Source of the DNA: a virus
Taxonomy: Duplodnaviria; Heunggongvirae; Uroviricota; Caudoviricetes
DNA length: 64,000 bases
Strand: one strand, 5' to 3'
IMG/VR virus record: IMGVR_UViG_3300050821_004987
Coordinates: 64,577 to 128,576 of that record
The position numbers were made by a program, and so were the translations under genes. Below the pieces are notes generated by a model that saw nothing but the letters and a program-made list of their open reading frames with translations, was not told the DNA's origin and searched no databases. This document shows positions 18,397 to 53,328 of the stretch, piece after piece. Within the stretch, counting starts at the first letter, position 1, and the number at the start of each line of letters is the position of its first letter.

Positions 18397-18400
18397 GGAC

Positions 18401-25608: not shown

Positions 25609-25811
25609 GATTGCATCCAGCTCCAGATCTTGTTGACGTGTCGTATCCTTGGTATGCGTCGAGAGTAAGGGCTATGTCCTTTTCGAAGCAGTTTTATACG
25701 ACAGAGAATGGATGGACAGTAGCTTCACAGATTTGTTTCAAGTGGTTGGCGACGATTAAGGAAGAGCTTGTGACTTTCAAGATTTTGAAGTGGAAAGGTG
25801 CAGTAAGTTGA
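25605..25811 (+). CDS. Small hypothetical protein
   Basis: 68-aa ORF, ATGA-coupled. Confidence 0.2.
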   Translation: MRLHPAPDLVDVSYPWYASRVRAMSFSKQFYTTENGWTVASQICFKWLATIKEELVTFKILKWKGAVS

Positions 25812-29332: not shown

Positions 29333-29811
29333 GTGAGTTACTGCAAGCTCAGAGAATAGCTCGTCCCATCTTGGCTCGTATATTGCGTAATCGACCAGAT
29401 GATGTAGATGATGTATTACAGACGGCCTCTCTTAGGGCATTCGACAAGATGGGGCAGTTTGAGCACCGATCGAAATTTTCGTCTTGGTTCGTACGCATAG
29501 CTATCAGATCAGCTTTGATGCATTTGCGTACGAAAGAAATAAAGCACGAGCATCAATATATTCCTGTCGATGATCTAGATAAGCTTTCTGTTTTCGATCA
29601 AGAGACTCCAGAAGACTTTGTGATTAGAAAAGAGCTAGAGGATCATAGGAGAGAACGCCTCCACAAAGCGATACGGCTTTTAACACCGAAGCGTCAGAGA
29701 ACGATTTACGCTTATCTAGAAGATAGGCATACGAATACGTCAGCAGAAAAAGGAAGGTTGCACGCAGCTCGTGTACAGTTAAAGATGATTCTTACGGGAG
29801 AGAAAGCATGA
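29329..29811 (+). CDS. ECF-like sigma-70 family sigma factor
   Basis: Region 2 'DVDDVLQTASLRAFDKMGQFEHRSKFSSWFVRIAIRSALMHLR'. Region 4 'LTPKRQRTIYAYLEDRHTNTSAEKGRLHAARVQL'. Confidence 0.65.
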   Translation: MSELLQAQRIARPILARILRNRPDDVDDVLQTASLRAFDKMGQFEHRSKFSSWFVRIAIRSALMHLRTKEIKHEHQYIPVDDLDKLSVFDQETPEDFVIRKELEDHRRERLHKAIRLLTPKRQRTIYAYLEDRHTNTSAEKGRLHAARVQLKMILTGEKA

Positions 29812-37572: not shown

Positions 37573-38859
37573 ATGATAGATGTAGCAGCAGATACGCGCC
37601 ACTCATATTTACTAGGTGGTTCAGTCGGTGCTTCCTCGCCCTTCACCGTAGCCAAAGCACTGGGTTCAGAGATATGGGACACGACCGGTAAGCGCTACAT
37701 AGACTGTACAGCGCAGGCTTGGAGTCTCAGTCTCGGACACAGCCATCCAAGAATCATTGAAGCTGTCTCAGAGCATCTGAAGAACTACGGACATATCAGA
37801 ACCAGTTTCGATACCGAGCCAAAATTGAAATTGGCTGAGAAGCTGCTTGAGATCGCTCCCGGAATGCAGAAGGTAGCTTTCTATCTCTCCGGTTCAGAAG
37901 CAGTAGAGGCTTCGATTAAGTTGGCTTTGAGAAATAAAAACGAGTCGTCGAGATCAAGTACTGTTGTTGCTTTGGAAGAGGGATTTCATGGGCGTACGTT
38001 CGCGACATCGGCCTTGAGTTGGGAAGGGCCAAATTATAATCCATTCAAGGCATGGATGAATCAGCCAGTGACGAGAATGAAGAGTGCCTATTGTTATCAT
38101 TGTCCAGTCGGCAAAGAGTTCAGTAGTTGCCATTATGAGTGCGTCGAGTTGGGAAACGCCGGTTATCAGCCAATAGCTTTTATCATGGAGCCGTTTCCGG
38201 GTAACGGTGGGATGATAAAGTTTCCACCAGATTATTTGAAGAAGATGCGAGAGAAAGTTGACGAGAGAGAATCGCTTCTTATTTTCGACGAGATTCAGAC
38301 TGGGATCGGTCGACTAGGTGATTGGTTTGCCTATACGAAATACAAAGTCATGCCAGATATTCTGGTGATCGGAAAAGGGTTGGGTGGTGGGTTTCCTCTT
38401 TTCGCCGTACTGACTGGGGAAAAGATTAAGAACGGGTTTCAGCCGGGAGATCATTCTTTTACGTTTGCGCATTTCTCGCCTTCGATGGTGGCTGCGTTGG
38501 AGACGATAGCCGTGATTGAAGAAGAAGAAATTTTGGATAACGTTCAGGTGATGGGTGAGCAGGTTGTTACGAGATTAGAGAAGATGAAACAGAAGTACAA
38601 GTTTATCGGAGACGTCCGAGGCGACGGTTTGATGATCGGAATCGAGATTGTGAAAGAAGGATCGAAAGAGCCAGCTCCAATCTTGACACACAAGTTGGTT
38701 GAGCGAGCAATGGAGAGGGGTGTGATCTTTGGAGAAGCCAAGTATGGTGGGTTGGGAAATATTATCAAGATCAAACCGCCGTTGAATATTTCTGATGAGT
38801 TGATGACAGAAGCGTTGGATGTATTAGAAGATATTTTCAGCAAAGTGATTCCATACTAA
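37573..38859 (+). CDS. Class III (acetylornithine/GSA/omega-type) PLP-dependent aminotransferase
   Basis: 'ILVIGKGLGGGFPL' (PLP lysine). 'LIFDEIQTGIGRLGDWFAY'. 428 aa with fold-type-I layout. Confidence 0.8.
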   Translation: MIDVAADTRHSYLLGGSVGASSPFTVAKALGSEIWDTTGKRYIDCTAQAWSLSLGHSHPRIIEAVSEHLKNYGHIRTSFDTEPKLKLAEKLLEIAPGMQKVAFYLSGSEAVEASIKLALRNKNESSRSSTVVALEEGFHGRTFATSALSWEGPNYNPFKAWMNQPVTRMKSAYCYHCPVGKEFSSCHYECVELGNAGYQPIAFIMEPFPGNGGMIKFPPDYLKKMREKVDERESLLIFDEIQTGIGRLGDWFAYTKYKVMPDILVIGKGLGGGFPLFAVLTGEKIKNGFQPGDHSFTFAHFSPSMVAALETIAVIEEEEILDNVQVMGEQVVTRLEKMKQKYKFIGDVRGDGLMIGIEIVKEGSKEPAPILTHKLVERAMERGVIFGEAKYGGLGNIIKIKPPLNISDELMTEALDVLEDIFSKVIPY

Positions 38860-38870
38860 GGACGGATGAG

Positions 38871-39542
38871 ATGATAATTCTTTGCACTTTAAGTGGGGGT
38901 TCAGACTCAGCTTACGCAGCTTACGCAGCGAAGCTGCTCTGGCCTGATGCTGAGTTTCATTCTTTGTTCGTCGAGTATGGGCAACCAGAAGTGGGTTCCG
39001 AGTTGCAAGCTTCTGTAAAGGTGCATAACAAGCTTGGGTTTGGGTCACATAGATGGCACAATGTCCGCATTCAGTGGCTATACAAGTTCGATCGAACGCA
39101 TCCAGATGATCTGAACTCTTTGTATGTTCCACACAGAAATTTAGTCATCGCCTCAGTTGGTGTCGCTTTAGCAGACCAGCTCGGAGCTGAGAAGCTGATC
39201 GTAGGTAACAAGAGTTTTAAGAAGACAGAAGGCGACTTCCTGACCTACGATGGGAATCGGGAATTCTACAAAGCGTTGGAAGCTGTCGTCCAGATGATTC
39301 AAGTGCACGGGCCAAAGCTGGAGATCGAGCCAACGCTTTCTATGGTGAATAAGTTGACGAGAGCAGATGTTTACTTCGGGCTCTGGGATCGTGGGTTTAA
39401 GTACGACGATACTTTCTCCTGTTGGTACGCTACAGTGAATGGAAAAGAGTGTGGGACTTGTAAGAATTGTGCAGAGAAGCAAGCTTTGTGGGTTAGTTGG
39501 TGTGGTAGGACTAGGGTAGGTCAGCATGCATCCACAGACTGA
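38871..39542 (+). CDS. queC: 7-cyano-7-deazaguanine synthase
   Basis: 'LCTLSGGSDSAYAA' PP-loop. 'YGQ', 'VPHRNLVIASVGVALA', 'FSCWYATVNGKECGTCKNCAEK' zinc site. Collinear with E. coli QueC. Confidence 0.85.
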   Translation: MIILCTLSGGSDSAYAAYAAKLLWPDAEFHSLFVEYGQPEVGSELQASVKVHNKLGFGSHRWHNVRIQWLYKFDRTHPDDLNSLYVPHRNLVIASVGVALADQLGAEKLIVGNKSFKKTEGDFLTYDGNREFYKALEAVVQMIQVHGPKLEIEPTLSMVNKLTRADVYFGLWDRGFKYDDTFSCWYATVNGKECGTCKNCAEKQALWVSWCGRTRVGQHASTD

Positions 39543-40230
39543 CATTGTGATTCCAGTTCACAATGCTCTGGAGTATGTCAGAGATTGTCTAGATTCTGTT
39601 TTTACAAAGACAAAAAATTTCAGATTCATTTTGGTAGATGATTTCTCGGATTTAGAAACAACAAAGCATTTGCACAGAGTTTTAGGACATCAGCCGACAG
39701 CATTGTATATTAGAACCGGGCAACAGAAGTGGTTCACGAGAGCTAGTAATCTTGGGTTGAGATTGGTCAGGACATCCAGATGTGTATTGTTGAATTCGGA
39801 TTGCGTTGTGGACGAAGGGTGGCTAGATGAGCTCTATGATGTTTGGGCTGAGGCCGAGTCAGTCATCGTTGGTAAAAGAATTGGTCTCGTTGGCTCCCAT
39901 CAAAGTATGGAAGAGCCGAGGCGTTGGGGTGAGTACGCTGAGCCAGGCTATGTTACGGGGCACTGTCTCCTACTTAGTATCCCGATTATCAGTGAGATCG
40001 CAGACAGAAGAGGAAATAGTGGCTGGTATCTTGACGAAGTGCACAGAGAAGCCTTGCACATAAATTCTGATCGCTTCCTCAGCTACGAGTTGAATCGTGC
40101 TGGCTATGCGACGGTAGCTTCTTTCAAGGCAGCTGTCGGACATCATGGTGGGAAGAGTTGGGGACATGATCTTGGGCGAATCGCCGGAGTACAGATTGGA
40201 GATCCACAGAAGGGTGAGATCTTCGGATGA
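39526..40230 (+). CDS. Family 2 glycosyltransferase
   Basis: 'DIVIPVHNALEYVRDCLDSV...FRFILVDDFSD' GT2 N-terminal and DxD region. Start overlaps the queC 3' end. Confidence 0.65.
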   Translation: MHPQTDIVIPVHNALEYVRDCLDSVFTKTKNFRFILVDDFSDLETTKHLHRVLGHQPTALYIRTGQQKWFTRASNLGLRLVRTSRCVLLNSDCVVDEGWLDELYDVWAEAESVIVGKRIGLVGSHQSMEEPRRWGEYAEPGYVTGHCLLLSIPIISEIADRRGNSGWYLDEVHREALHINSDRFLSYELNRAGYATVASFKAAVGHHGGKSWGHDLGRIAGVQIGDPQKGEIFG

Positions 40231-40234
40231 TGTT

Positions 40235-40242
40235 TGTATAAT
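40235..40242 (+). promoter_or_regulatory. Extended -10 box (TTGTATAATGAG family)
   Basis: 'tgtTTGTATAATGAGttt' lies just after the GT2 stop, roughly 170 nt upstream of the ATG at 40413. Confidence 0.4.
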
Positions 40243-40368
40243 GAGTTTGGAAGGGAAAGGGAAGCAAAGAAACGGAGGTGGCTATGCGAGGGGTTACCGG
40301 TTGTCTCGGAAAGCCCTCTAAAGAATAGTGATATCTGGTATGGCTGGATCTCACAATGTCAGCGATAA

Positions 40369-40388
40369 GGGGCTTCGAAAGAAGCCCC
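40369..40388 (+). promoter_or_regulatory. Stable GNRA-capped hairpin in 5' leader
   Basis: GGGGCTTC-gaaa-GAAGCCCC, 8-bp stem, 25 nt upstream of the ATG. Confidence 0.4.
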
Positions 40389-40412
40389 ATTAAAATTTCA
40401 GAAGGAGTCATC

Positions 40413-41051
40413 ATGGAAACAGTTTTGGGCAGAAGGCAGTTCTTTGAGATATCAGGCAAAGGAGTGTTGGGTTTGGCGGTGACGAGAGCTTTGGTTGTGG
40501 GTGGAGCTGCATTTGTAGTTGTCGGTTGTGGATTCAACATCGCAGAGATCGGCACTTGGGTCACCGTCGGTAACGGAGCGATCGGCAGTGTTCTGAATTT
40601 GTTAGTTGGCGCCGGGATTCTGGCCTGCGTAACTTGTTCCGTTTTGGCGAACGCAGCTGAAGCGGCGATCACAGCAATCGGAGTAGCTGTTACGAATTGG
40701 CAAAACGCCCCAGCAACAGACAAACAAACAACGCTTGAAAAGATTCAGCTGGCGTTGCAGGTTGGCTTGGAAGCGGCAACAGCCTTTTTTCAAAGTTTCT
40801 CAATTCCGGGAGGATCGTCGATAATCTCTTTGGTCTTGGGAATCGCTGGTTTGGTTTTGAACGCCATCGCCGGGTTCATCAGCCAAGTCGGTCTACCGCC
40901 TGCTCCGGCAGCCAAGCCAATGCTTCATGAGTATGAAGTAGCTGGTAACAAAGTGCAAGTGACGCCGACGTTGATGACAGCCAACCAGGCCAAATCCGCA
41001 CTAAACAAGTTGTTGGTGCAGTACGGTCATCCAGAATTGGTTTTGCACTAA
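40413..41051 (+). CDS. Polytopic membrane protein (small-residue-rich TM helices)
   Basis: RBS AGAAGGAGTCATC. Five or more hydrophobic Gly/Ala-rich segments. Confidence 0.5.
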   Translation: METVLGRRQFFEISGKGVLGLAVTRALVVGGAAFVVVGCGFNIAEIGTWVTVGNGAIGSVLNLLVGAGILACVTCSVLANAAEAAITAIGVAVTNWQNAPATDKQTTLEKIQLALQVGLEAATAFFQSFSIPGGSSIISLVLGIAGLVLNAIAGFISQVGLPPAPAAKPMLHEYEVAGNKVQVTPTLMTANQAKSALNKLLVQYGHPELVLH

Positions 41052-41070
41052 AATCAAGAACGAGGTTCCG

Positions 41071-42198
41071 ATGGAAGATGAGAAGAAAGCTGTTTTCGAG
41101 GTAGACATGGACCAACGACGGGGGTTCGAGCATTTACCGGGTGGTAGCTCGAAGCACATCGACCACCCGTCGCACGCTCAGCCTGGTATCCATGTCTACC
41201 CAGATAAGCTTTATGTAGTGACAGTCTTGGAGAATCCTCTCAGATGGAGATCCAGATATCGGAACTATTGGATCTTTGAGAATATGTGTAAGAAAGCCGG
41301 CGTCGAGCTTTACGTAGCCGAGATCGCGTTCGGTGGGAGAGACTTCGAGATTGCCGAGGAGGGAAATCCAAAACATTTGCGGTTGCGATCGCACGATGAG
41401 TTGCTTCACAAAGAGAATGCTTTGAACTTGCTCATCCAAAGGCTTCCAGAAGGAGCAAAAAAGATCGGAACACTGGACGCCGATATTCAGTTCGCTCGTT
41501 CAGATTGGGCACAAGAGGCCTTGCATCTGTTAGATCATTACAAAGTGTTGCAGGGTTTCAGTCATTCCATGGATCTGGGTCCACAGAATCAGCCCGTGCA
41601 GTTGCATGAAGGCTTTGTAATGCATGAGCTGGCTTATCCGCCACACAATCCGAATAAGTTGTCGAAAGACCATCGATTCAATCGGCCAAGACCAAACACA
41701 GATTTGGGTTACTACGGTGGGAAAGGAAAGTATATACTGTGGCATCCGGGACTGGTTTGGTTCTGGAGAAAGACAGCTATCAATCAGTTGGGTGGGTTGA
41801 TGGACTGGGTACTCGGTGGCTCGGCAGATCATTACATGGCGTTGGCGCTGTTCAACAAACTTTCAAGAACGAATTTGAACTTGCGAGAGTTTTCACAAGG
41901 ATACCAGCGTTCTTGTTTCGAATGGCAGGCGAGGGCAGAAAGACATATCAGAAGGAACATCGGTGTGCTGCCCGGGTTGGTGATGCATTCCTGGCATGGT
42001 CATAAAGAGAAGAGGCAGTATCTATCACGGGCACAGTTTCTGGCCAAGACGGGATTCGATCCGGCGCATCATTTGAAGAGAGATTGGCAAGGGTTGTGGC
42101 AGTTGCAAGATGACGGTTCGCTGAACTACATCATGATTCGCGATGGCCTGAGACATTTCGCCAGGCTACGCGATGAAGATGCGATGGACTTCGAATAG
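41071..42198 (+). CDS. Hypothetical protein (possible nucleotide-sugar transferase fold; weak)
   Basis: 375-aa ORF. 'IGTLDADIQF' is a DxD-like motif. No TGT/DpdA motifs recognised. Confidence 0.3.
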   Translation: MEDEKKAVFEVDMDQRRGFEHLPGGSSKHIDHPSHAQPGIHVYPDKLYVVTVLENPLRWRSRYRNYWIFENMCKKAGVELYVAEIAFGGRDFEIAEEGNPKHLRLRSHDELLHKENALNLLIQRLPEGAKKIGTLDADIQFARSDWAQEALHLLDHYKVLQGFSHSMDLGPQNQPVQLHEGFVMHELAYPPHNPNKLSKDHRFNRPRPNTDLGYYGGKGKYILWHPGLVWFWRKTAINQLGGLMDWVLGGSADHYMALALFNKLSRTNLNLREFSQGYQRSCFEWQARAERHIRRNIGVLPGLVMHSWHGHKEKRQYLSRAQFLAKTGFDPAHHLKRDWQGLWQLQDDGSLNYIMIRDGLRHFARLRDEDAMDFE

Positions 42199-42207
42199 GA
42201 GAACAAG

Positions 42208-43041
42208 ATGATCGAATATGCAAAAATGAAGTTCGGTAAGAAGCCAGCAAAGATCGATCCGAGAACCCTCAAGGTCGAGAAGTATTTCCTAGCTTCATTG
42301 GCTCCAGCGCCAGATGATTGCGATTACACTGGTGGCATTACAGAGTTTGGCATGATGTTAAACGGGCCAAACAGCTACGGTCCGCCAGTACCATCAGAAG
42401 GTCTGGGGTGTTGTACGATTTCAGCTCCCGGACATGCTGAGCAGACAGCGACGTTAGCTTCGACTGGTACGATGTGGACGCCACCAGACTCAGATATTTT
42501 GCAACGCTATACAGAATGGGATGGCTACATTCCAGGTGATGAAGGCACAGACAATGGTGGAGTTGAGATCGACGTTCTCAACGATTGGCATCAAACCAGC
42601 TTCTGGAAGCACTATCTGATGGCTTATGCCGATCCAGTTGTGACGAATCTGGATCACATCAAGAAGTCGATCTACTACTTCGGTGGTCTCTACATCGGGC
42701 TACAGTTGCCAAACACAGCGTTGAGTCAAGAGACATGGGATGTGGTTCCAGACGCAGCCACGAACTCAGACGCGTTGGCCAATCCGAACAACGGTCACGC
42801 GGTTTGGGTTCCCAAGTACCGCACGTTGGCGGATGGTTCGCTGGTACTTACTTGCATCACATGGGGCCAGTCGCTTGACATCACAGAAGCATTCTGGGTC
42901 TACACAGACGTAGACGGAAATCCTTACGTGGATGAAGCCCACGCACTTTGCCTATGCGACTTCGTCGGGAAAGCCGGTAAGGATCCAGCAGGTTTGGACA
43001 TTCCACAGATGCTGGCAGACAAGCAGCTCGTGACAGGATGA
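42208..43041 (+). CDS. Hypothetical protein
   Basis: 277-aa ORF with RBS AGGAGAACAAG. Confidence 0.35.
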   Translation: MIEYAKMKFGKKPAKIDPRTLKVEKYFLASLAPAPDDCDYTGGITEFGMMLNGPNSYGPPVPSEGLGCCTISAPGHAEQTATLASTGTMWTPPDSDILQRYTEWDGYIPGDEGTDNGGVEIDVLNDWHQTSFWKHYLMAYADPVVTNLDHIKKSIYYFGGLYIGLQLPNTALSQETWDVVPDAATNSDALANPNNGHAVWVPKYRTLADGSLVLTCITWGQSLDITEAFWVYTDVDGNPYVDEAHALCLCDFVGKAGKDPAGLDIPQMLADKQLVTG

Positions 43042-43042
43042 G

Positions 43043-43390
43043 ATGGCAGAAGAGAAAAAATTTACGTCGTTGGTTGATCTGCTGAGACAGAAAGATAGAA
43101 TCAATCTGGAAGCGGCAGCTCAAGGGCACGACGGGTTCTTTCCAGTAGCTGTGCAGGTGCCACAGTCTGATGGGAAGACAGTAACAAGAGGACAGACGAA
43201 TCCGACTCCGAAGAAAGATGGGGCATATCGGGGTCGGATTCTGTTGTTCGAGCCAACGAAAGAGCGAGTGACTATTTTGAAAGAGAGAGTCGGGCAGAGT
43301 TACCAAGGAGACTGGTTGCACGAAGTGACGACGCGAGAGGGCCATAAGTTTCTGGCAATGCAGAAGCAGTTGAAAGATCTTGTAAAATGA
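43043..43390 (+). CDS. Hypothetical protein
   Basis: 115-aa ORF. Confidence 0.35.
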   Translation: MAEEKKFTSLVDLLRQKDRINLEAAAQGHDGFFPVAVQVPQSDGKTVTRGQTNPTPKKDGAYRGRILLFEPTKERVTILKERVGQSYQGDWLHEVTTREGHKFLAMQKQLKDLVK

Positions 43391-43463
43391 ATTTCGGTCG
43401 GGTATGGTCGGGTGGTGTGGGGTTAGGTCTGGTTGGCTTAGGTAAGGTATGGTGAGGTAAGGT
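43391..43463 (+). promoter_or_regulatory. GGT-rich upstream cassette (family member 1)
   Basis: '...ggtcgggtggtgtggggttaggtctggttggcttaggtaaggtatggtgaggtaaggtATG'. Confidence 0.5.
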
Positions 43464-43823
43464 ATGGAAATGAAAGTTGTCGCAACATTCTTACTAGCAT
43501 TCTTACTAGCATTTTCTACACAAGCTCAATGCACGAAGAATGTGGATGGGAGTTCTTCTTGTAAACTTTCTTTAGCCGACGGTACGGTGTTTTCCTATCA
43601 GTCATTTACGAATGTGATATATCCGTTGGGTCTTAGTTGCGACCCGCTGGTAGGGATTATCTACACTCTACGTCCACCGACATCTGATTTGAATGCTGTG
43701 GTTTATGATCAAGACTGGATTCGTATACCAAGTGGTTGCGTGGTGGATATCCAGTCCGGGAGAATAAGTTGTGGTCCAGTAAATCAGAAAGCTACAGCAA
43801 CGTTTTCGATAACGATCAACTAG
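43464..43823 (+). CDS. Small secreted Cys-containing protein
   Basis: 'MEMKVVATFLLAFLLAFSTQAQC' signal peptide. Confidence 0.45.
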   Translation: MEMKVVATFLLAFLLAFSTQAQCTKNVDGSSSCKLSLADGTVFSYQSFTNVIYPLGLSCDPLVGIIYTLRPPTSDLNAVVYDQDWIRIPSGCVVDIQSGRISCGPVNQKATATFSITIN

Positions 43824-43836
43824 AAGGAGAAAAAGA

Positions 43837-44376
43837 ATGATGATTCGCAAGACGTTTCGCTTCGAAGCCAGTCATCTACTTCCAAAACATCCCGGAAAAT
43901 GTTCAAGGCTCCACGGGCATTCGTTTGTTTTGCATGTGGAGACCGAAGGGCGGGTCAATAAAGAGACTGGGTTTGTGATGGACTACGCCGATATGTCGGC
44001 AGCTGTCAAGCCTTTGATCGAGCGATTAGATCACAGACACTTGGGAGCTTGGGCAGTCTATCAGACTGACAGAGAGAAGCCGACAGGAGATTCTGTAAAC
44101 GACTACAGACTTTTAGCAGAGATATGGGGAGACGATGATGGCTACTACGATAATTGGAAAGTGCCTGGCCTTCCACTAGACTTCTACCCCAGCTCAGAAA
44201 ACATTTTGTTCTGGATTGGAGAACAGTTAGCAACAGCACAATTCAAGTGGTCCAAGGTAGCGCTAGAAGAAACTTGTACATCGTATTGTGAGTTAAGACT
44301 AGATGAGTTCATGGTCTACTTCACGAACAAGTATGGGCTACCAGCAGCCCAGTTTGCGTTGGCGGAGTGGCGATGA
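43837..44376 (+). CDS. queD: 6-carboxy-5,6,7,8-tetrahydropterin synthase
   Basis: 'IRKTFRFEASHLLPKHPGKCSRLHGHSFVLHVETEG' is the PTPS/QueD zinc-site signature. Confidence 0.8.
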   Translation: MMIRKTFRFEASHLLPKHPGKCSRLHGHSFVLHVETEGRVNKETGFVMDYADMSAAVKPLIERLDHRHLGAWAVYQTDREKPTGDSVNDYRLLAEIWGDDDGYYDNWKVPGLPLDFYPSSENILFWIGEQLATAQFKWSKVALEETCTSYCELRLDEFMVYFTNKYGLPAAQFALAEWR

Positions 44377-44879
44377 AGAAGAAAAAGAAGCCGCGTGGGC
44401 ATGGGAAGGGTTCTGGTTTCGAGCGTAAGATCGCCAAAGAGATCATCAAGGCCTATCGTAAGGCCGGCTTTAAGGTAAAGCAGAACGACTGTTGGCGCTC
44501 AGTTCTTTCTGGTGGACACGAGATGTCGGCTGGAGATTTGAGAATGTCCGCTCAGATGGAGAAGCTGTTTCCATACGCAGTGGAGTGTAAGTTCTACAAG
44601 AAGATTAAGCTGGAGAACTTCCTACTTGGAAATAAGAAGAGCAAGGAAATTCAGTGGCTTGTGCAGACGATGGAAGGTTCTAGAAAAAGCAATAAGCTAA
44701 CTGGTCTTTTAGTGATGAAGGCCAACAGGATGAAGATCTTAACGATGCGTTGGCTGTCTTATGCTGAGTGGAAAGGAATGGATAATTTCATTCAGACTAG
44801 GAATGGTTGCTGGGAAGTGAAGACTTGGAAAGAGTTTTTGAAGACTGTGGTTCTAGATGCGCAGGTTAGGTTCTTATGA
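44367..44879 (+). CDS. Hjc-like (archaeal-type Holliday junction resolvase fold) nuclease
   Basis: 'GKGSGFERKIAKEIIKAYRKAGFKV' parallels the Hjc N-terminal 'KGSxFERELxxxL' motif. PD-(D/E)xK-type. Confidence 0.45.
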   Translation: MAMKKKKKPRGHGKGSGFERKIAKEIIKAYRKAGFKVKQNDCWRSVLSGGHEMSAGDLRMSAQMEKLFPYAVECKFYKKIKLENFLLGNKKSKEIQWLVQTMEGSRKSNKLTGLLVMKANRMKILTMRWLSYAEWKGMDNFIQTRNGCWEVKTWKEFLKTVVLDAQVRFL

Positions 44880-45898
44880 AGCCATCAGTCGCTTGGTTGC
44901 CAGCGGGGCTCGACGGATGCGCCCTTTATCGAATGTTTTTCGCCCATCTGAGAATGGAAGGATCAATCTTTCTATTCCAACCGATGCGAATGCAGGTAGA
45001 TCTATTGAAAGACAGAAACATAGTCGTCGTCCAGAGACTATCTTCTCAGCAGAACTATGAAGCGATTCAGTTGTTCAAAAAGATGAAGCTGAAGATCATC
45101 TACGATTTGGACGACGATCTCTGGTCGGTACCGACATTCAATCCAGCCCACAGATTGATGAAGAAGTGGCTGCCGGGTTTCGAGATTTGTGCCAAGATGG
45201 CCGATATGATTACGGTCTCGACAGAGCATCTGAGAGTGATGGTTCGGAATGCTTTGGGAAAGAAATGTCCTCCAGTGGCTGTGGTCGAGAACGCCGTCGA
45301 CTTCGATTGGTTCAGACCGGTAGCTGAGAAATACAGAAAGAATAGAGACGGGAGAGTAGTTCTTGGTTGGGCTGGGACAGATACCCACTCAGGAGATGTG
45401 GAGAAAGTCTTCGCTCTGGTTCCAGCATTGCTCAAGGATAATCCTGAGTTAGATTTCGAAGTGGTCGGTACCGGGATATCAGAAGAGTTGAAGTCGTTTG
45501 GAGATAGAGTCAGACAGAAGGGCTTTGTGCCCATAGCCGAGTTTGCAGCGAATTGGGCTAGCTGGCAATGGGATATTTCACTAGCTCCAGTAGCTGAGAA
45601 TTCGTTTAATCTCTCGAAGTCGAACATCAAGATGTTGGAAGCCGCTGCGATGAAGATTCCTTGCGTAGCTTCCAGATATGGAGAGTACAAGAAATTCGCC
45701 AATCATTCCGAGTTGTTGCAGATAATTGTTCAAGCTGAGAATGCTAGGGATTGGAGAACCAGAATTCAGGCTTTGATAGATTCACCGACGTATAGAAAGA
45801 AAGCTGGAGAAGAGATGTACCGCGTGGGTCAAGAGAAATACAATATCATCCATCGAGTCTCTCAGTGGAACAAGCTATTCGAGGAAGTGTTAGCATGA
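44876..45898 (+). CDS. GT-B fold glycosyltransferase-like protein
   Basis: C-terminal 'SKSNIKMLEAAAMKIPCVAS' resembles the GT1/GT4 E-x7-E region. Confidence 0.4.
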   Translation: MKPSVAWLPAGLDGCALYRMFFAHLRMEGSIFLFQPMRMQVDLLKDRNIVVVQRLSSQQNYEAIQLFKKMKLKIIYDLDDDLWSVPTFNPAHRLMKKWLPGFEICAKMADMITVSTEHLRVMVRNALGKKCPPVAVVENAVDFDWFRPVAEKYRKNRDGRVVLGWAGTDTHSGDVEKVFALVPALLKDNPELDFEVVGTGISEELKSFGDRVRQKGFVPIAEFAANWASWQWDISLAPVAENSFNLSKSNIKMLEAAAMKIPCVASRYGEYKKFANHSELLQIIVQAENARDWRTRIQALIDSPTYRKKAGEEMYRVGQEKYNIIHRVSQWNKLFEEVLA

Positions 45899-46131
45899 AA
45901 TTACTTCTTTGGATTGTGCTCATACTTTCTGGTGGGACGTTGTTGTATTTAGGTTATATATTTCTAGCAGGTTGGTCAGCAGTGAGATCAGCTCCGAGAG
46001 CGGATATGTTTATCTGTCCAAAGGGTCACGGGCCACTTCCAGAGTCAGCCTTGATTGATTTCATGGGAGAGAAACACTGCTCAATCTGTTTCCACAATAG
46101 ACTGAAGGACGCAGAGAAGGGTAGGATATGA
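45865..46131 (+). CDS. Small membrane protein
   Basis: N-terminal TM helix 'LLLWIVLILSGGTLLYLGYIFLAGW'. Confidence 0.3.
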   Translation: MEQAIRGSVSMKLLLWIVLILSGGTLLYLGYIFLAGWSAVRSAPRADMFICPKGHGPLPESALIDFMGEKHCSICFHNRLKDAEKGRI

Positions 46132-46922
46132 AAGAGAAGCTTCTATTTATCCTGCCCGATTCACTGGAAGAGATGCTATTCGCTTCGACAGTTCTATCCC
46201 AGTATCTGATTTCTCGGATGGTCATGGGACGGGATTCAACGCATGTGACGATCGTTACCAAGCACGATGAGCTGCATAGCTATCTAAAAGCCTGCTGGGA
46301 ATTGGCTGAGATCGTTACCGAGCCGACAAGAGAGCAAATAGAGGAAGCAGATTTTATCTTCGAGTTCGATGCAGAGAGTTCCTATCGGGTAACACAAGCA
46401 GTTCAGAAGCATATAGCAGAAGCTTTTTCCATCCAGCTCGGTGTCGGGCTGATGAGATTCTTGCCACCAGTTCTGGTAGAGGACGTGAAAGAAGAGGTCG
46501 GAACAATTCTTGTGGCCGACAGAAATATAAGGGACGGTTTGGGAGAGTCTTGGGAGTGGCCTCATCTAGAAGATTTCATGGGTCAGTTGGGACAGGCAGA
46601 GATTCCAGTTGTTTGGTTGCCTGCTGAAGCTTCTTGGGAAGAGATGAGAACGGTGGTTGGGAGATCTTCTATGGTTGTTGGAGTTCGTGGATCGGCGACA
46701 TTGATCGCTGCCGCTGCAAACAGACTGGTGATGGAGCTGTCACCAAAAGACAAAGGGCACCGGGACTGGTTCCGGAAAAGAGAATGTGCAACCTACAGAA
46801 TGATCTACGGTGAGCTAAAAGATATGACACCAGCTTTCGTCTGGCAGCAGATTGAGAAGCTGATGGAAGAGTCGAAGAGAGGTAAGCCTCAGACGGCTAG
46901 ATTGGCGATGGCAGATGGGTAA
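46128..46922 (+). CDS. Hypothetical protein (weak GT9/heptosyltransferase-like features)
   Basis: 'KLLFILPDSLEEMLFAST' and 'SSMVVGVRGSATLIAAAANRLVMEL' loosely parallel GT9 motifs. Confidence 0.3.
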   Translation: MKEKLLFILPDSLEEMLFASTVLSQYLISRMVMGRDSTHVTIVTKHDELHSYLKACWELAEIVTEPTREQIEEADFIFEFDAESSYRVTQAVQKHIAEAFSIQLGVGLMRFLPPVLVEDVKEEVGTILVADRNIRDGLGESWEWPHLEDFMGQLGQAEIPVVWLPAEASWEEMRTVVGRSSMVVGVRGSATLIAAAANRLVMELSPKDKGHRDWFRKRECATYRMIYGELKDMTPAFVWQQIEKLMEESKRGKPQTARLAMADG

Positions 46923-47289
46923 CGATCCTCGTAATCCTTTATTCACTTATCTCGGACCGGGAGCAAGAAGGAAAGTCGGCTCGGATGGATTGATAACGAT
47001 CGTCTGTCGGATTTGTACGAAGCCGATATCAAGAGAGATGTATCGGGGTTTCTCAACAGCAATCTGTGCAGTTTGCCAGGGAGAAGTCGAGAGGGGTAAG
47101 ACGCCAGATGAGATACTGGCGATGGTGAAGAAAGTTGAGACAGAACAGGTGCATTCTTTGTATAATGAAATAGGACCAAGTGGTTTCCGGGCACACGGGT
47201 TTGGGCAGAGAATAAAAGATATAGTTAAGAAGGTTCGAGAAGCGGCAACAAAGCGGAGACGTTCACCGTTGTTCGCGAAGAAAGATTAG
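46915..47289 (+). CDS. Hypothetical zinc-ribbon protein
   Basis: 'CRICTKP...CAVCQGE'. Contains an internal 'TTTGTATAATGAA' box at about 47158. Confidence 0.35.
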   Translation: MGNDPRNPLFTYLGPGARRKVGSDGLITIVCRICTKPISREMYRGFSTAICAVCQGEVERGKTPDEILAMVKKVETEQVHSLYNEIGPSGFRAHGFGQRIKDIVKKVREAATKRRRSPLFAKKD

Positions 47290-47570
47290 TGATGAAATTT
47301 TCAAAGCATCAGCCGAAAGACGGAGAGACGATTTTGCATTGTGGGCATTTAGAGAAGAAGCCACATCATTTTTACGCTATAGGAGATCCAGAAAAAAGAA
47401 TTCCACAAGAGATGGATTTTAGAAGACCAGATGGTTCGGTTGGTAAAGCAAAGTGGATGGTGCTTTGCAGAGACTGTTTTCAGATCTATTCAGATAATCC
47501 GGCTGCTTGTATGCGGGCAGATGGTGAATGGATTGGAGATGCGCCGGTAGTAAAAGAAGATTTTCAGTAA
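47289..47570 (+). CDS. Hypothetical protein
   Basis: 93-aa ORF. Confidence 0.3.
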   Translation: MMKFSKHQPKDGETILHCGHLEKKPHHFYAIGDPEKRIPQEMDFRRPDGSVGKAKWMVLCRDCFQIYSDNPAACMRADGEWIGDAPVVKEDFQ

Positions 47571-47660
47571 GAGATGGGGCCATGAGCAACGCACAGGAGT
47601 TAGTGACTCCCAGCGTCTCTTCCGGAACCTGCGGGACAGCCGGTGGCCCCCACAATTTTG

Positions 47661-47814
47661 GCTAGGTATGGTAAGGAGAGGTTAGCTAAGGTCGCGTGCG
47701 GTTGGGTTAGCTCTGGTCAGGTCCGGTTTTGTATGGTTGGCTAAGGTCCGGTGGCGTCTGGTGAGGTGAGTTCGGGTTGGGTTGTGTGATGTAGGCTAAG
47801 GTGAGGAGAAAAGA
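47661..47814 (+). promoter_or_regulatory. GGT-rich upstream cassette (family member 2, longest)
   Basis: 'ggtatggtaaggagaggttagctaaggtcgcgtgcggttgggttagctctggtcaggtccgg...gtaggctaaggtgaggagaaaagaATG'. Confidence 0.5.
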
Positions 47815-48573
47815 ATGAAGAAATTTCCGATTAGCGAGACATTTGATTCAATCCAAGGAGAAGGAATATATACCGGTACCAGAATGTTTTTTATTCGGTT
47901 CGCTGGCTGCTCAGTAGGCAAGAAGTTGCCGAAAGAATTCTATGACGATACTCCAAGAGAGATAAAAGATCAGAATGCTCCGGGGGGTTATCGAATCGAG
48001 CGTTCTAAACTTCCAATCTATACAGAGCAATGTCATACATATGACGGGAGGTCATTCAACTGCGACACAGATTTCCGAACGAAGGAAGTGCTTACCGGGG
48101 AAGAGCTTATAGATCGAATTCCAAAAGGAGTTGAGCATGTTTGTTTGACAGGAGGAGAGCCCCTGAACCAGCCGCTCGCAGAGTTCATAGACTTCTTGTC
48201 CGATCTTGGCTTCATGGTTCACATCGAGACATCGGGTACGGTCAGTTTTACAGATAAGTATCCGAACTACAGCGAGCAGGATTCTCTTTCGAATCCAGAT
48301 GGTGGTTGGCTCTGGCTTACGGTCAGTCCAAAGATGGGTGTGCTAGAGGAGATGATCGGGATAGCCGATGAGATCAAACTGCTGGTCGACGATCATTTCG
48401 ATGTAGCCAAAATTCCAGAAGACATTCTAGATCACAAGCTCGTTTGGATACAGCCGATCAATGCTGAGTTTTCAGTAGACAGAAAAAATCTAGACAAGTG
48501 TATTCAGCTGTTGAAAGAGCATCCAAGTTGGAGACTCTCGACGCAAATGCACAAGATCTGGAACGTCAGATGA
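47815..48573 (+). CDS. queE: 7-carboxy-7-deazaguanine synthase (radical SAM) with non-canonical Cys spacing
   Basis: 'SIQGEGIYTG', 'FIRFAGC', 'NCDTDF', 'HVCLTGGEPL', 'HIETSGT', 'WLTVSPK', 'WIQPIN', 'LSTQMHKIWNV' are collinear with E. coli QueE. Confidence 0.8.
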   Translation: MKKFPISETFDSIQGEGIYTGTRMFFIRFAGCSVGKKLPKEFYDDTPREIKDQNAPGGYRIERSKLPIYTEQCHTYDGRSFNCDTDFRTKEVLTGEELIDRIPKGVEHVCLTGGEPLNQPLAEFIDFLSDLGFMVHIETSGTVSFTDKYPNYSEQDSLSNPDGGWLWLTVSPKMGVLEEMIGIADEIKLLVDDHFDVAKIPEDILDHKLVWIQPINAEFSVDRKNLDKCIQLLKEHPSWRLSTQMHKIWNVR

Positions 48574-52976: not shown

Positions 52977-52990
52977 GAAAGGAGATCAGC

Positions 52991-53296: not shown

Positions 53297-53328
53297 CAGA
53301 AGCAAAATTCACTTGAGGAGACTTTAGC

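What the first reader, a model, noticed from the sequence alone, without database searches (positions are those of the whole stretch)
37573..48573. Dispersed queC-queD-queE (preQ0) module wired to a class III aminotransferase and glycosyltransferases: candidate new 7-deazaguanine derivative
Seen in sequence: queC (38871..39542), queD (43837..44376) and queE (47815..48573) are present with textbook motifs and supply the complete GTP-to-preQ0 branch after folE. They are not adjacent. The class III PLP aminotransferase (37573..38859) stops 12 nt before queC. A GT2 glycosyltransferase (39526..40230) begins inside the queC 3' end. Downstream come a small-residue-rich polytopic membrane protein with a long hairpin-containing leader, two GT-like ORFs (41071, 44876), an Hjc-like nuclease ATGA-coupled to queD, and a weak GT9-like ORF (46128). 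Established knowledge: phage queCDE sets normally accompany a DpdA-type transglycosylase that places 7-deazaguanines into DNA, giving dPreQ0, dADG, dG+, dPreQ1 and methyl, formyl or carboxy variants. None of the known tailoring enzymes is a class III aminotransferase or a glycosyltransferase. Inference: this element may build a further aminated and/or glycosylated 7-deazaguanine, in DNA or another acceptor, as an anti-restriction hypermodification. I could not recognise a DpdA/TGT-like ORF in this window.
Basis: partly seen in the sequence, partly recalled or inferred. Interest (0 to 1): 0.8.

Follow-up and report, generated by a model that had tools for sequence, protein, structure and literature searches.

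The report
Phage aminotransferase–QueC-like deazaguanine cassette
A large uncultured soil phage carries the genes for the 7-deazaguanine base, and its unusual QueC-like enzyme always sits directly after a phage-specific PLP aminotransferase (usually followed by a small glycosyltransferase), which suggests an undescribed deazaguanine derivative; the product and its target remain unknown.

Summary
All lie on the + strand of a tailed phage of at least 128 kb.

- **Motifs.** They are not all textbook. QueC lacks two of five canonical signature motifs, and QueE has an odd cysteine spacing.
- **AT–QueC link.** Every relative of this QueC that I could inspect (5 of 5 lineages) has the same AT immediately upstream, usually overlapping by 4 nt. 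This includes a phage contig that shares nothing else with the window. There the pair lies in a replication module with DpdA and GTP cyclohydrolase I and has no glycosyltransferase. The phage ATs form a clade with 100/100 bootstrap support inside a cellular family found in sugar and amino-sugar operons.
- **GT2.** It follows QueC in four of the five lineages.
- **Other GTs.** They look like part of a much larger glycan toolkit (17.6–30.8 kb and beyond).
- **DpdA.** None is found in about 80 kb of the genome. About 49 kb could not be read.

Best reading: the AT and a divergent QueC-type ligase make a non-canonical 7-substituted deazaguanine, probably for DNA.

The parts
37573..38859 (+). Class III (fold type I) PLP-dependent aminotransferase-family enzyme. 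It is the upstream partner in the conserved AT–QueC cassette.
   Evidence: Pfam Aminotran_3 325.6 bits. All NCBIfam hits fall below equivalog cut-offs. K268, D239, Q242 and R141 are present. Nearest PDB chains are amino-acid racemases 9wrf/9wqz and GabT. The phage clade has 100/100 bootstrap support.
38871..39542 (+). Divergent QueC-family PP-loop ATPase/ligase. It acts on 7-carboxy-7-deazaguanine or a close relative (inferred).
   Evidence: Pfam QueC 78.6 bits. TIGR00364 61.9 bits, below the 150 cut-off. Only 8 close homologues among 5.8 billion proteins. Motif analysis. PDB hits to QueC are only about 40 bits, and to Cap9 30 bits.
39526..40230 (+). Small soluble GT-A (GT2) glycosyltransferase. 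It is translationally coupled to the QueC-like gene.
   Evidence: Glycos_transf_2 65 bits. It overlaps QueC in the window, L008, L010 and L098 and is absent after QueC in L012. The nearest solved sequences are polypeptide GalNAc-transferases.
40356..41051 (+). Predicted membrane protein with three hydrophobic segments. It lies in a variable insert and is probably not part of the cassette.
   Evidence: Hydropathy analysis. No family hit. No tblastn match in L008, L010 or L012.
41071..42198 (+). GT-A-fold glycosyltransferase-like protein with a DxD motif. It lies in a variable insert and is not a transglycosylase.
   Evidence: 3663 representative homologues. D136/D138 are invariant. AF2 pLDDT 88.1. 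All top Foldseek hits are GT-A enzymes. Not conserved in L008 or L010.
42208..43041 (+). Papain-like cysteine peptidase. It is unrelated to the deazaguanine pathway.
   Evidence: C69 and H197 are invariant. AF2 pLDDT 94.6. Foldseek finds xylellain and cathepsins. Homologues sit next to endolysins in phages and prophages that lack que genes.
43837..44376 (+). QueD (6-carboxytetrahydropterin synthase, PTPS family).
   Evidence: Pfam PTPS 100.2 bits. TIGR03367 80.1 bits against a cut-off of 89.25. phrog_2389 QueD-like. A CxxxHGH motif is visible in the sequence.
44367..44879 (+). PD-(D/E)XK nuclease (PDDEXK_15). It overlaps the queD stop, and its role is unknown.
   Evidence: PF24608 51.3 bits. 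It is conserved after QueD in L008 and L010.
44876..45898 (+). GT-B (GT4-like) glycosyltransferase.
   Evidence: Glyco_trans_1_4 and Glyco_trans_1_2 hits. phrog_7162 E = 3.9e-40. Conserved in L008 (77%) and L010 (56%).
46128..46922 (+). Conserved protein of unknown function. It is possibly GT9-like and is not DpdA.
   Evidence: No Pfam, NCBIfam or PHROG hit. Weak match to the GT9-like ORF 57260. hhalign against the DpdA profile gives 0.35% probability. Conserved in L008 and L010.
47815..48573 (+). QueE-family radical SAM enzyme (7-carboxy-7-deazaguanine synthase) with atypical cysteine spacing.
   Evidence: Five NCBIfam QueE models are the best hits, all below their cut-offs. phrog_2076. PDB QueE 6NHL and 4NJG. 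C32/C73/C83 are invariant.
17623..30764 (+). Context, not part of the cassette: a nucleotide-sugar/glycan cluster. It holds an RmlA-like gene, an RmlB-like gene, a C-methyltransferase, two GMD-like dehydratases, a B12-radical SAM enzyme, a methyltransferase and three paralogous GT-like ORFs.
   Evidence: Pfam hits. Paralogy of the three ORFs. No PHROG hits for those paralogues.

Best explanation
The window is part of a tailed phage genome of at least 128 kb, probably from soil. Its source contigs come from ENA, JGI and Logan metagenome assemblies.

The phage encodes QueD and QueE, which make 7-carboxy-7-deazaguanine (CDG) from the product of GTP cyclohydrolase I. It also encodes a divergent QueC-family ATP-dependent enzyme. 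That enzyme works together with a dedicated class III PLP enzyme encoded immediately upstream. In this lineage a small GT2 encoded immediately downstream may also take part.

This QueC subfamily has lost the His of YxQxHxxE and the P-D-C of YPDC, while keeping the ATP loop, VPxRN, the tyrosines and the zinc site. I therefore infer that it still adenylates CDG but does not simply make preQ0 with free ammonia.

The most likely model is that the PLP enzyme makes or presents an amine, and the QueC-like enzyme joins that amine to CDG as an N-substituted 7-carboxamide. This is the chemistry known for RoyL-type QueC homologues and for Cap9. In an unrelated phage the same two-gene cassette sits with DpdA and FolE, so the product is most likely inserted into phage DNA by a DpdA encoded in the unread part of this genome, as an anti-restriction modification.

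What is shown: gene identities, cassette conservation, the motif changes, and the absence of DpdA in about 80 kb. What is inferred: the substrate of the AT, amide ligation, DNA as the acceptor, and any role for GT2. The remaining GTs are best assigned to the phage's separate glycan machinery.
For: - **Gene identities:**. The element is a phage: terminase large subunit and a portal gene just downstream.
- **Genome size:** contigs of 102,914 and 128,576 bp.
- **Cassette in close relatives:** AT–QueC adjacency with a 4-nt overlap in L008, L010 and L098, and an 11-nt gap in the window.
- **Cassette in an unrelated phage:** L012/L013 carries AT (53% identity) and QueC (55%), overlapping, between DnaB/NT5C and primase. 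DpdA lies 4 kb downstream (phrog_887, E = 9e-30, DSGAF motif), directly followed by GTP cyclohydrolase I.
- **Discrete unit:** tblastx of the whole window against L012 finds only the AT–QueC segment. L097 has a replication module with the L012 gene order but lacks the pair at that position. The cassette therefore moves as a unit.
- **AT phylogeny:** more than 566 metagenomic AT relatives at 41-54% identity were found, and none of the 80 inspected is near a QueC or DpdA. The four phage ATs form an exclusive clade in 100/100 bootstraps.
- **QueC motifs:** Y36-G-Q38-P-E40-V-G-S-E44 and Y126-D-G-N129, conserved in all 8 subfamily members. Alignment to PDB QueC 2pg3 and 3bl5 puts P-E where they have R-H.
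- **Literature:** the canonical QueC signature and the Cap9 variant Y/FxQ(x)5E come from PMC13329287. RoyL-type QueC homologues ligate Lys, Orn or DABA to adenylated CDG (bioRxiv 10.64898/2026.04.15.718813).
Against: - No DpdA, FolE, QueF or other insertion or tailoring enzyme was found in the window, 10 kb upstream or 5.9 kb downstream. DNA as the target is therefore extrapolated from L012.
- The residues shown by mutagenesis to be essential in E. coli QueC (Y35, R99, Y131) all have counterparts here, and Y189 is replaced by Trp. Ordinary preQ0 synthesis is not excluded.
- The phage ATs differ from cellular relatives at only four clade-specific positions, and those relatives sit in sugar and amino-sugar operons. 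The AT may simply be a sugar-pathway enzyme.
- RoyL retains the canonical Tyr/His/Glu triad, so this subfamily is not demonstrably RoyL-like.
- Only five lineages are known, and three or four of them belong to one phage group.
Confidence: 0.4

Rival explanations
1. Ordinary preQ0 pathway plus unrelated sugar enzymes. QueD, QueE and QueC make plain preQ0 (or ADG) for a DpdA encoded elsewhere. The aminotransferase and all the GTs belong to the phage's glycan system, which glycosylates the virion or modifies the host surface. They sit next to the que genes only through shared ancestry or co-expression.
For: - A large nucleotide-sugar cluster with RmlA-like and RmlB-like genes, two GMD-like dehydratases, methyltransferases and GT-like paralogues lies at 17.6-30.8 kb. 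More GT-like genes lie at 41071, 44876 and 57260.
- The class III AT is the only aminotransferase found in the window, and there is no DegT-type enzyme.
- Its cellular relatives sit with FGGY kinases, GlmS/NagB-II-like SIS proteins, M20 deacylases and sugar isomerases.
- The active-site residues of the phage ATs are unchanged.
- The nearest solved sequences to GT2 are polypeptide GalNAc-transferases.
- The essential QueC residues are retained.
Against: - In L012 the AT–QueC pair lies in a replication and nucleotide-metabolism module with DpdA and FolE, and no sugar gene is present in 17.9 kb.
- The pair is the only thing shared with the window.
- 5 of 5 lineages keep the adjacency, mostly with a 4-nt overlap.
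- The QueC subfamily departs from the canonical signature at two substrate-pocket motifs.
Confidence: 0.3
2. A free or glycan-bound deazapurine conjugate rather than a DNA base. By analogy with the huimycin and dapiramicin gene clusters, the que genes, deoxysugar genes, methyltransferases and GTs together build a glycosylated 7-deazapurine. It could be a small molecule or a decoration on a virion or host glycan, and no transglycosylase would be involved.
For: - No DpdA in about 80 kb.
- The window combines a preQ0/CDG core, RmlA/RmlB-like genes, methyltransferases and several GTs. This is the gene content proposed for dapiramicin A and found for huimycin (10.64898/2026.04.15.718813).
- That preprint treats 'tailoring enzymes present, nucleic-acid insertion enzyme absent' as the signature of a metabolite cluster.
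- It also reports an uncharacterised Streptomyces cluster group with a preQ0 core plus PF00202 aminotransferases.
Against: - About 49 kb of the genome is unread, and the replication module, where L012 and L097 keep DpdA, has not been seen.
- The same AT–QueC cassette co-occurs with DpdA in L012.
- The sugar cluster is 7 kb or more away from the que block, separated by unrelated genes.
- No HuiC-like enzyme was identified.
Confidence: 0.12
3. Host tRNA reprogramming. The phage supplies preQ0 or CDG to raise queuosine levels in host tRNA during infection. The AT and GTs play no part in this.
For: - QueC, QueD and QueE are present without DpdA, FolE or QueF in the sequence that could be read.
- Host Tgt, QueF and QueA/G could complete the pathway to queuosine (established knowledge).
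Against: - Cui et al. 2023 report that all viruses with 7-deazaguanine synthesis genes encode a DpdA (PMC10516641).
- The L012 cassette sits beside DpdA.
- This reading does not explain the conserved AT partner or the altered QueC motifs.
- No preQ1 riboswitch or other Rfam element was found in 36-50 kb.
Confidence: 0.08
4. Counter-defence. The QueC-like protein carries the Cap9-type motif variant. It would interfere with QueC-family defence systems (type IV CBASS Cap9/Cap10, or QatABCD), for example by consuming CDG or by mis-modifying the defence protein.
For: - The YxQ(x)5E variant is shared with Cap9 (PMC13329287).
- There is a weak profile hit to Cap9 9nto_B (30 bits).
Against: - Its partners are biosynthetic (QueD, QueE, AT).
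- In L012 it sits with DpdA and FolE, which is the signature of DNA modification.
- No Cap10-like or QatB-like gene was found.
- The similarity to canonical QueC (about 40 bits) is higher than to Cap9.
Confidence: 0.04

Closest known systems
Phage 7-deazaguanine DNA modification pathways: DpdA with FolE/QueD/QueE/QueC, with or without Gat-QueC, QueF, DpdL, DpdM or DpdN (Hutinet 2019, PMC6884629; Cui 2023, PMC10516641)
   Same: QueD, QueE and a QueC-family enzyme are encoded by a tailed phage. In the relative L012 the same AT–QueC cassette is next to DpdA and GTP cyclohydrolase I, inside a replication module.
   Different: No DpdA or FolE was found in about 80 kb of this genome. The QueC is non-canonical at two signature motifs. 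Its constant partner is a class III PLP enzyme, and usually a GT2 as well. The two papers I read mention no class III aminotransferase or glycosyltransferase among the tailoring enzymes.
RoyL-type deazapurine amide-bond synthetases (roseomycin A and peptidyl-deazapurines; bioRxiv 10.64898/2026.04.15.718813 and its reference 16)
   Same: A divergent QueC homologue is proposed to use an amine other than ammonia on adenylated CDG. The RoyL amines (Lys, Orn, DABA) are the kind of compound that class III aminotransferases make.
   Different: RoyL keeps the Tyr/His/Glu triad, whereas here the His is replaced by Glu. RoyL occurs in actinomycete metabolite clusters, not in phages. No sequence or phylogenetic comparison with RoyL was possible here.
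Huimycin and dapiramicin-type glycosylated 7-deazapurine gene clusters
   Same: They combine a preQ0 core, glycosyltransferase(s), methyltransferases and (for dapiramicin) RmlB-type deoxysugar genes. All of these gene classes are present in the window.
   Different: They are actinomycete secondary-metabolite clusters with regulators and transporters. No HuiC or HuiG homology was tested. In the window the sugar cluster is separated from the que block, and the element is a phage.
Cap9 (type IV CBASS) and QatC: QueC-family protein-deazaguanylating ligases (PMC13329287)
   Same: The Cap9-type Y/FxQ(x)5E variant of the YxQxHxxE motif is present. The PP-loop and zinc cysteines are retained. There is a weak profile match to Cap9.
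   Different: No Cap10/TGT-like or QatB partner is present. Cap9 has YxDC where this subfamily has YDGN. The context is biosynthetic and phage-borne.
Uncharacterised Streptomyces 7-deazapurine cluster group with PF00202 aminotransferases (same 2026 preprint)
   Same: A class III aminotransferase co-occurs with preQ0 core genes.
   Different: Those clusters also carry non-heme dioxygenases, FAA hydrolases and methyltransferases, and their products are unknown. Homology of their ATs to the phage AT was not tested.
Phage virion glycosylation systems (mycobacteriophage GTs) and nucleotide-sugar gene sets of large viruses
   Same: Multiple GTs and nucleotide-sugar enzymes are encoded by a phage. 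The closest solved sequence relatives of GT2 are polypeptide GalNAc-transferases.
   Different: Those systems have no connection to 7-deazaguanine genes. Here GT2 is translationally coupled to the QueC-like gene in four lineages.

Membership tests
Canonical QueC (preQ0 synthase, PF06508 cluster 1) | SGGxDS PP-loop | tested here: met
   S8-G-G-S-D-S13 is invariant in all 8 subfamily members.
Canonical QueC (preQ0 synthase, PF06508 cluster 1) | C(x)8CxxCxxC zinc motif | tested here: met
   C184, C194, C197 and C200 are invariant. The first spacer is 9 residues in the window and 8-9 in relatives.
Canonical QueC (preQ0 synthase, PF06508 cluster 1) | YxQxHxxE motif | tested here: not met
   The window has Y36-G-Q38-P39-E40-V-G-S-E44, that is YxQ(x)5E. 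P-E aligns with R-H of PDB QueC 2pg3 and 3bl5. Motif definition from PMC13329287.
Canonical QueC (preQ0 synthase, PF06508 cluster 1) | VPxRN motif | tested here: met
   V86-P-H-R89-N90. P87, R89 and N90 are invariant.
Canonical QueC (preQ0 synthase, PF06508 cluster 1) | YPDC motif | tested here: not met
   Y126-D127-G128-N129 is invariant in the subfamily and aligns with GYPDC of 2pg3 and 3bl5.
Canonical QueC (preQ0 synthase, PF06508 cluster 1) | Score above curated family thresholds | tested here: inconclusive
   Pfam 78.6 bits exceeds the gathering cut-off of 22. NCBIfam equivalog TIGR00364 scores 61.9 bits, below its 150.3 cut-off.
Canonical QueC (preQ0 synthase, PF06508 cluster 1) | Converts CDG + NH3 + 2 ATP to preQ0 | not testable with these tools
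   This needs an enzyme assay or ΔqueC complementation.
QueD (6-carboxytetrahydropterin synthase) | PTPS fold/family with the Cys-x3-His-Gly-His catalytic motif | tested here: met
   Pfam PTPS 100.2 bits. 'CSRLHGH' is visible in the sequence. TIGR03367 scores 80.1 bits, just under its 89.25 cut-off.
QueE (7-carboxy-7-deazaguanine synthase) | Homology to QueE over the N-terminal QGEG...GC segment and the C-terminal barrel | tested here: met
   Five QueE NCBIfam models are the best hits, all below their cut-offs. The nearest PDB chains are QueE 6NHL, 4NJG and 5TGS.
QueE (7-carboxy-7-deazaguanine synthase) | Radical SAM cluster motif CxxxCxxC or Cx14CxxC | tested here: not met
   The invariant pattern is C32-x40-C73-x9-C83-DTDF. 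Three conserved cysteines exist but with new spacing.
Phage Dpd-type 7-deazaguanine DNA modification system | A DpdA (TGT-family DNA transglycosylase) encoded by the virus | tested here: inconclusive
   Absent from the window, 10 kb upstream and 5.9 kb downstream. About 49 kb of the genome of at least 128 kb could not be read. DpdA is present beside the same cassette in L012.
Phage Dpd-type 7-deazaguanine DNA modification system | Modified 2'-deoxy-7-deazaguanosine in virion DNA | not testable with these tools
   This needs LC-MS/MS.
Class III (Aminotran_3) PLP enzymes | Family score plus the Schiff-base Lys and the Asp/Gln PLP ligands | tested here: met
   325.6 bits. K268 lies in 'IGKGLGGG', and D239 and Q242 lie in 'FDEIQTG'. 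All are conserved in the 80 cellular relatives. One relative, L008, has E at position 268, but its sibling contig L009 has K.
Class III (Aminotran_3) PLP enzymes | Assignment to a characterised specificity (GABA, ornithine, DABA, BioA, racemase) | tested here: not met
   All 69 NCBIfam hits fall far below their cut-offs. The Arg of the usual '...R-x-x-P-P-L' carboxylate site is Lys (K399) throughout this family. The mapping of that site is from memory.
RoyL-type deazapurine amide-bond synthetase | Amine-pocket residues Tyr41/His45/Glu48 | tested here: inconclusive
   Equivalents of Tyr and Glu are present, and His is replaced by Glu. No RoyL sequence was available for alignment or a tree.
Huimycin/dapiramicin-type glycosylated deazapurine cluster | preQ0 core, HuiC-like O-methyltransferase, HuiG-like GT, and no nucleic-acid insertion enzyme | tested here: inconclusive
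   The gene classes are present. Homology to HuiC and HuiG was not tested. The absence of an insertion enzyme is established for only about 80 kb.

The most novel reading that the evidence does not exclude
The cassette builds a sugar- or amine-linked 7-deazaguanine of a kind not yet seen in any virus. The class III enzyme, whose cellular relatives sit in amino-sugar operons, makes an amino sugar or another primary amine. The QueC-like ligase joins CDG to it through an amide bond. GT2 then transfers or extends the sugar. The result would be a glycosylated 7-carboxamido-7-deazaguanine, either in phage DNA through a DpdA or on a virion glycan.
Probability: 0.12. Interest if true: 0.9.

Novelty: new variant of a known kind. 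Interest (0 to 1): 0.62.

Why it matters
- **A possible new derivative.** Eight 7-deazaguanine derivatives are known in phage DNA. Their enzymes (DpdA, Gat-QueC, QueF, DpdL, DpdM, DpdN) are used to predict DNA modifications from sequence. A conserved, mobile aminotransferase–QueC-like cassette with altered substrate-pocket motifs would add a new enzyme pair to that list, and probably a new derivative.
- **A link between fields.** It would connect phage DNA modification with the recently recognised amide-ligase activities of QueC homologues such as RoyL, Cap9 and QatC.
- **A testable prediction.** The QueC-like enzyme should need the AT or its product.
- **Practical consequences.** Such modifications affect restriction and CRISPR resistance, sequencing of environmental phage DNA, and the enzyme toolkit for making modified DNA.
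- **If the ordinary reading is right.** The result still matters for annotation, because a Pfam 'QueC' hit next to QueD and QueE does not guarantee preQ0 synthesis.

Tried and rejected
- **No close public relatives.** Megablast of the 11-kb region and tblastn of the 1876-aa ORF against INPHARED phages found nothing. IMG/VR scans with QueC, with the AT alignment and with the QueC alignment also found nothing. The GTDB genome scan returned only the L013 contig again.
- **ORF 42208 as a hidden DpdA: rejected.** It has a papain-like fold and occurs beside endolysins in phages without que genes.
- **ORF 41071 as DpdA: rejected.** It has a GT-A fold.
- **ORF 46128 as DpdA: rejected.** hhalign against the DpdA profile gives 0.35% probability. 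Its own function remains unknown.
- **DpdA by contig length: failed.** I tried to locate the phage's DpdA through homologues of the L012 DpdA, using contig length as a tag. None of the 120 listed hits lies on the 102.9-, 128.6- or 87.9-kb contigs. P0134 turned out to be a different phage, L097.
- **Walking along the genome: limited.** Only 10 kb upstream (L095) and 5.9 kb downstream (L001) could be obtained. Two look-ups were wasted.
- **A wider AT–QueC association: not found.** None of the 80 AT relatives at 41-54% identity has a QueC or DpdA nearby.
- **Regulatory RNA or a preQ1 riboswitch in 36-50 kb: none**. The leader hairpin is not significant. Promoter and terminator scans are at or below the shuffle expectation.
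- **AT as an ammonia supplier for QueC** (like the Gat domain of Gat-QueC), or **AT converting 7-formyl-deazaguanine to preQ1:** considered. I found no evidence for either and no source of the aldehyde, so both are kept only as minor possibilities.

Full report
**What the window is.** All credible genes lie on the + strand and GC skew is positive throughout. ORF 49441-51159 is a terminase large subunit (phrog_2). A portal gene lies 3.5 kb beyond the window end (L001). Identical proteins occur on metagenome contigs of 102,914 bp (ENA ERZ27253773) and 128,576 bp. The 102.9-kb contig extends about 59 kb upstream of window position 1. The element is therefore a tailed phage of at least 128 kb. It has no close relative in INPHARED or IMG/VR.

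**Checking the observation.**
- Pfam, NCBIfam and PHROGs confirm the following:
  - a class III aminotransferase-family protein (37573-38859, 325.6 bits);
  - a QueC-family protein (38871-39542);
  - a GT2 (39526-40230) that overlaps queC by 17 nt;
  - QueD/PTPS (43837-44376);
  - a PDDEXK_15 nuclease that overlaps the queD stop;
  - a GT-B glycosyltransferase (44876-45898);
  - a QueE-family radical SAM enzyme (47815-48573).
- ORF 40356 has three hydrophobic segments.
- ORF 41071 had no family hit. It has 3663 representative homologues and an invariant DxD. A confident AF2 model (pLDDT 88.1) has only GT-A glycosyltransferases as its best structural matches.
- ORF 42208 is a papain-like cysteine peptidase. 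It has invariant Cys and His, an AF2 pLDDT of 94.6, and Foldseek matches to xylellain and cathepsins. Its homologues sit beside endolysins in phages and prophages that have no que genes.
- ORF 46128 stays unassigned. It has a weak pairwise match to the GT9-like ORF 57260 (E = 0.011) and no relation to DpdA by hhalign.
- The 'hairpin leader' before 40356 is not more stable than shuffled sequence. Rfam finds nothing in 36-50 kb.

**The motifs are not all textbook.**
- A 2026 study defines canonical QueC by five motifs: SGGxDS, YxQxHxxE, VPxRN, YPDC and C(x)8CxxCxxC. It shows that Y35, R99, Y131 and Y189 are essential (PMC13329287).
- The window protein and its seven relatives keep SGGSDS, V-P-H-R-N and the four cysteines. 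They carry Y-G-Q-P-E-V-x-x-E, that is YxQ(x)5E, the variant described for Cap9. They carry Y-D-G-N in place of YPDC.
- In HMMER alignments to PDB QueC 2pg3 and 3bl5, P-E falls on R-H and YDGN falls on YPDC. The scores are only about 40 bits, and Cap9 (9nto) is also detected at 30 bits.
- The protein scores 61.9 bits against the TIGR00364 cut-off of 150.
- QueE has three invariant cysteines spaced C-x40-C-x9-C-DTDF, not the known QueE spacings.

**The transglycosylase.**
- Pfam TGT does not hit any + strand ORF of at least 80 aa.
- Pfam is insensitive here. The DpdA of the relative L012 has no precomputed Pfam hit, yet it matches phrog_887 at E = 9e-30 and carries DSGAF.
- I therefore built an HMM from 116 homologues of that DpdA and searched six-frame ORFs of the window, of 10 kb upstream (L095) and of 5.9 kb downstream (L001). 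Nothing scored better than E = 0.75.
- No D-[SNT]-[GA]-[GAS]-[FYW] motif exists in any frame.
- About 80 kb is therefore free of this DpdA type, and about 49 kb is unread.
- The window also lacks GTP cyclohydrolase I and QueF.

**Comparative evidence, which decides the matter.**
- This QueC subfamily is rare, with 8 proteins among 5.8 billion.
- In close relatives the whole order is conserved: AT, QueC, GT2, then QueD, nuclease, GT-B, the 46128-like ORF, then QueE. This holds for L008 (QueC 70% identical) and for L010/L011 (66%).
- L098 is a 2.4-kb contig that carries AT (64%), QueC (56%) and GT2 (73%). Each gene overlaps the next by 4 nt.
- The most informative contig is L012/L013, binned in a 'Patescibacteria' MAG but phage-like.
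  - It carries ThyX, dCTP deaminase, DnaB, NT5C, then AT (53%) and QueC (55%) overlapping, then primase and a 5'-3' exonuclease.
  - About 4 kb further on it carries DpdA, GTP cyclohydrolase I, a T-fold protein and PolA.
  - No GT follows QueC.
- tblastx of the whole window against L012 finds only the AT–QueC segment.
- L097 has the L012-type replication module but lacks the pair at that position.
- The AT belongs to a large cellular family. More than 566 metagenomic relatives at 41-54% identity were found. None of the 80 inspected is near a QueC or DpdA.
- Those relatives sit with FGGY sugar kinases, GlmS-isomerase/NagB-II-like SIS proteins, ArgE/DapE deacylases, KdsD-like isomerases, arabinose/sulfoquinovose-isomerase-like proteins, Zn-dependent dehydrogenases and DhnA aldolases.
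- Within that family the four phage ATs form an exclusive clade in 100 of 100 NJ bootstraps.
- The phage ATs differ from the cellular enzymes at only four clade-specific positions, and all catalytic residues are kept.
- AT–QueC is therefore a discrete, mobile two-gene unit acquired once. GT2 is a frequent third member but not an obligatory one.

**How it most likely works.**
- Shown:
  - the phage can make CDG (QueD, QueE), given a GTP cyclohydrolase I product from the host or from the unread genome;
  - it has a QueC-type ATP-dependent enzyme with an altered pocket;
  - that enzyme is inherited together with a PLP enzyme;
  - in another phage the same pair accompanies DpdA and FolE.
- Inferred:
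  - the QueC-like enzyme adenylates CDG and couples it to an amine supplied by the PLP enzyme, giving an N-substituted 7-carboxamide;
  - the base is then exchanged into DNA by DpdA;
  - GT2 may act on the substituent in this lineage.
- Precedent exists for the ligase step. RoyL-type QueC homologues attach Lys, Orn or DABA to adenylated CDG, and Cap9 attaches CDG to a protein N-terminus.
- I give this reading 0.4 confidence. It may fail in several ways. The essential QueC residues are retained. RoyL keeps the His that is lost here. The relatives of the AT point to sugars.

**Rival readings.**
- The main rival (0.3) is an ordinary preQ0 pathway, with the AT and all GTs serving the phage's glycan system.
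  - For it: the 17.6-30.8 kb cluster holds RmlA-like and RmlB-like genes, a C-methyltransferase, two GMD-like dehydratases, a B12-radical SAM enzyme, a methyltransferase and three GT-like paralogues. There is no DegT-type aminotransferase. GT2's nearest solved sequence relatives are polypeptide GalNAc-transferases.
  - Against it: L012.
- A huimycin/dapiramicin-like free or glycan-bound deazapurine (0.12) fits the gene classes and the missing DpdA. It conflicts with L012 and depends on the unread 49 kb.
- Boosting host tRNA queuosine (0.08) and counter-defence (0.04) explain less.

**Comparison with what is known, and novelty.**
- The two phage studies I read, Hutinet 2019 and Cui 2023, name no class III aminotransferase or glycosyltransferase among 7-deazaguanine enzymes. 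They state that every virus with these synthesis genes has a DpdA.
- A 2026 preprint notes PF00202 aminotransferases in uncharacterised Streptomyces deazapurine clusters, and GTs in the huimycin and dapiramicin clusters. The general idea therefore has precedent outside phages.
- I classify the finding as a new variant of a known kind.
- Interest is 0.62. This is a concrete, testable new enzyme pair in an active field, but its chemistry is unproven and its acceptor unknown.

Noticed in passing
window 17623-30764: A large nucleotide-sugar/glycan cluster. It holds an RmlA-like nucleotidyltransferase, an RmlB-like 4,6-dehydratase, DUF4254, an NDP-hexose C-methyltransferase, two GDP-mannose-dehydratase-like genes, a B12-binding radical SAM enzyme, a SAM methyltransferase and a sigma-70-like factor. 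This suggests a branched or methylated deoxysugar glycan made by the phage.
   Followed up: partly
window 25790-28616: Three tandem paralogous ORFs of about 310 aa (29% identity, E = 2e-30 between the first and third). None has a Pfam or PHROG hit. They are possibly an undescribed GT-like family.
   Followed up: partly
window 42208-43041; L005 3981-4787; L007 10001-10753: A widespread family (294 hits at E ≤ 0.001; phrog_19005, 'unknown function') is a papain-like cysteine peptidase by structure. It usually sits next to endolysin genes in phages and in Acidobacteriota prophages, so it may be a lysis-associated protease.
   Followed up: yes
window 47815-48573: The QueE family member has an invariant, unusually spaced cysteine triad (C32-x40-C73-x9-C83-DTDF) with a 40-residue insert.
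   Followed up: partly
L008 1475-2764 versus L009 3-494: One assembly of a related phage has Glu at the PLP-binding lysine of the aminotransferase (IGEGLGGG). A second assembly of the same phage type has Lys. This is either a polymorphism, an error or an inactive allele.
   Followed up: partly
window 19369-20169 and 35486-36232: Two DUF559/Vsr-like endonuclease genes with basic repeat-rich N-termini are weakly related to each other. One lies inside the sugar cluster and one upstream of the que block. They look like homing-endonuclease-type insertions.
   Followed up: no
window 34057-35489: An ATLF-like metallopeptidase domain protein is followed by an InPase (PF18823) protein. The InPase gene is conserved upstream of the AT in L010/L011.
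   Followed up: no
window 6711-12341: A 1876-aa ORF in the structural region has no tblastn match in 50,697 phage records. It was not scanned against Pfam or any other family library. Its neighbours carry Ig-like domains (He_PIG, HYDIN/ASH).
   Followed up: no
window 52320-63612: A set of host-like accessory genes lies between the terminase and the portal: a DUF6011 protein, a VWA-domain protein, a GT9-like heptosyltransferase-like ORF (57260-58177), a GrpE homologue (59329-60357) and an SPFH/Band 7 protein (62677-63612).
   Followed up: no
L019, L020, L033 (about 5.8-14.2 kb in each): The cellular relatives of the AT lie in a conserved operon: ECF transporter ATPase and T component, FGGY kinase, AT, GlmS-isomerase/NagB-II-like SIS protein, ArgE/DapE M20 deacylase and KdsD-like SIS protein. 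It looks like an uncharacterised amino-sugar or glycated-amine catabolic pathway.
   Followed up: partly
window 23688-24200: A 170-aa ORF has an N-terminal 'CMCQGGNSRS' motif that resembles the low-molecular-weight phosphatase/ArsC P-loop, and a Cys-rich C-terminus. It has no Pfam or PHROG hit. The resemblance was judged from sequence and memory only.
   Followed up: no
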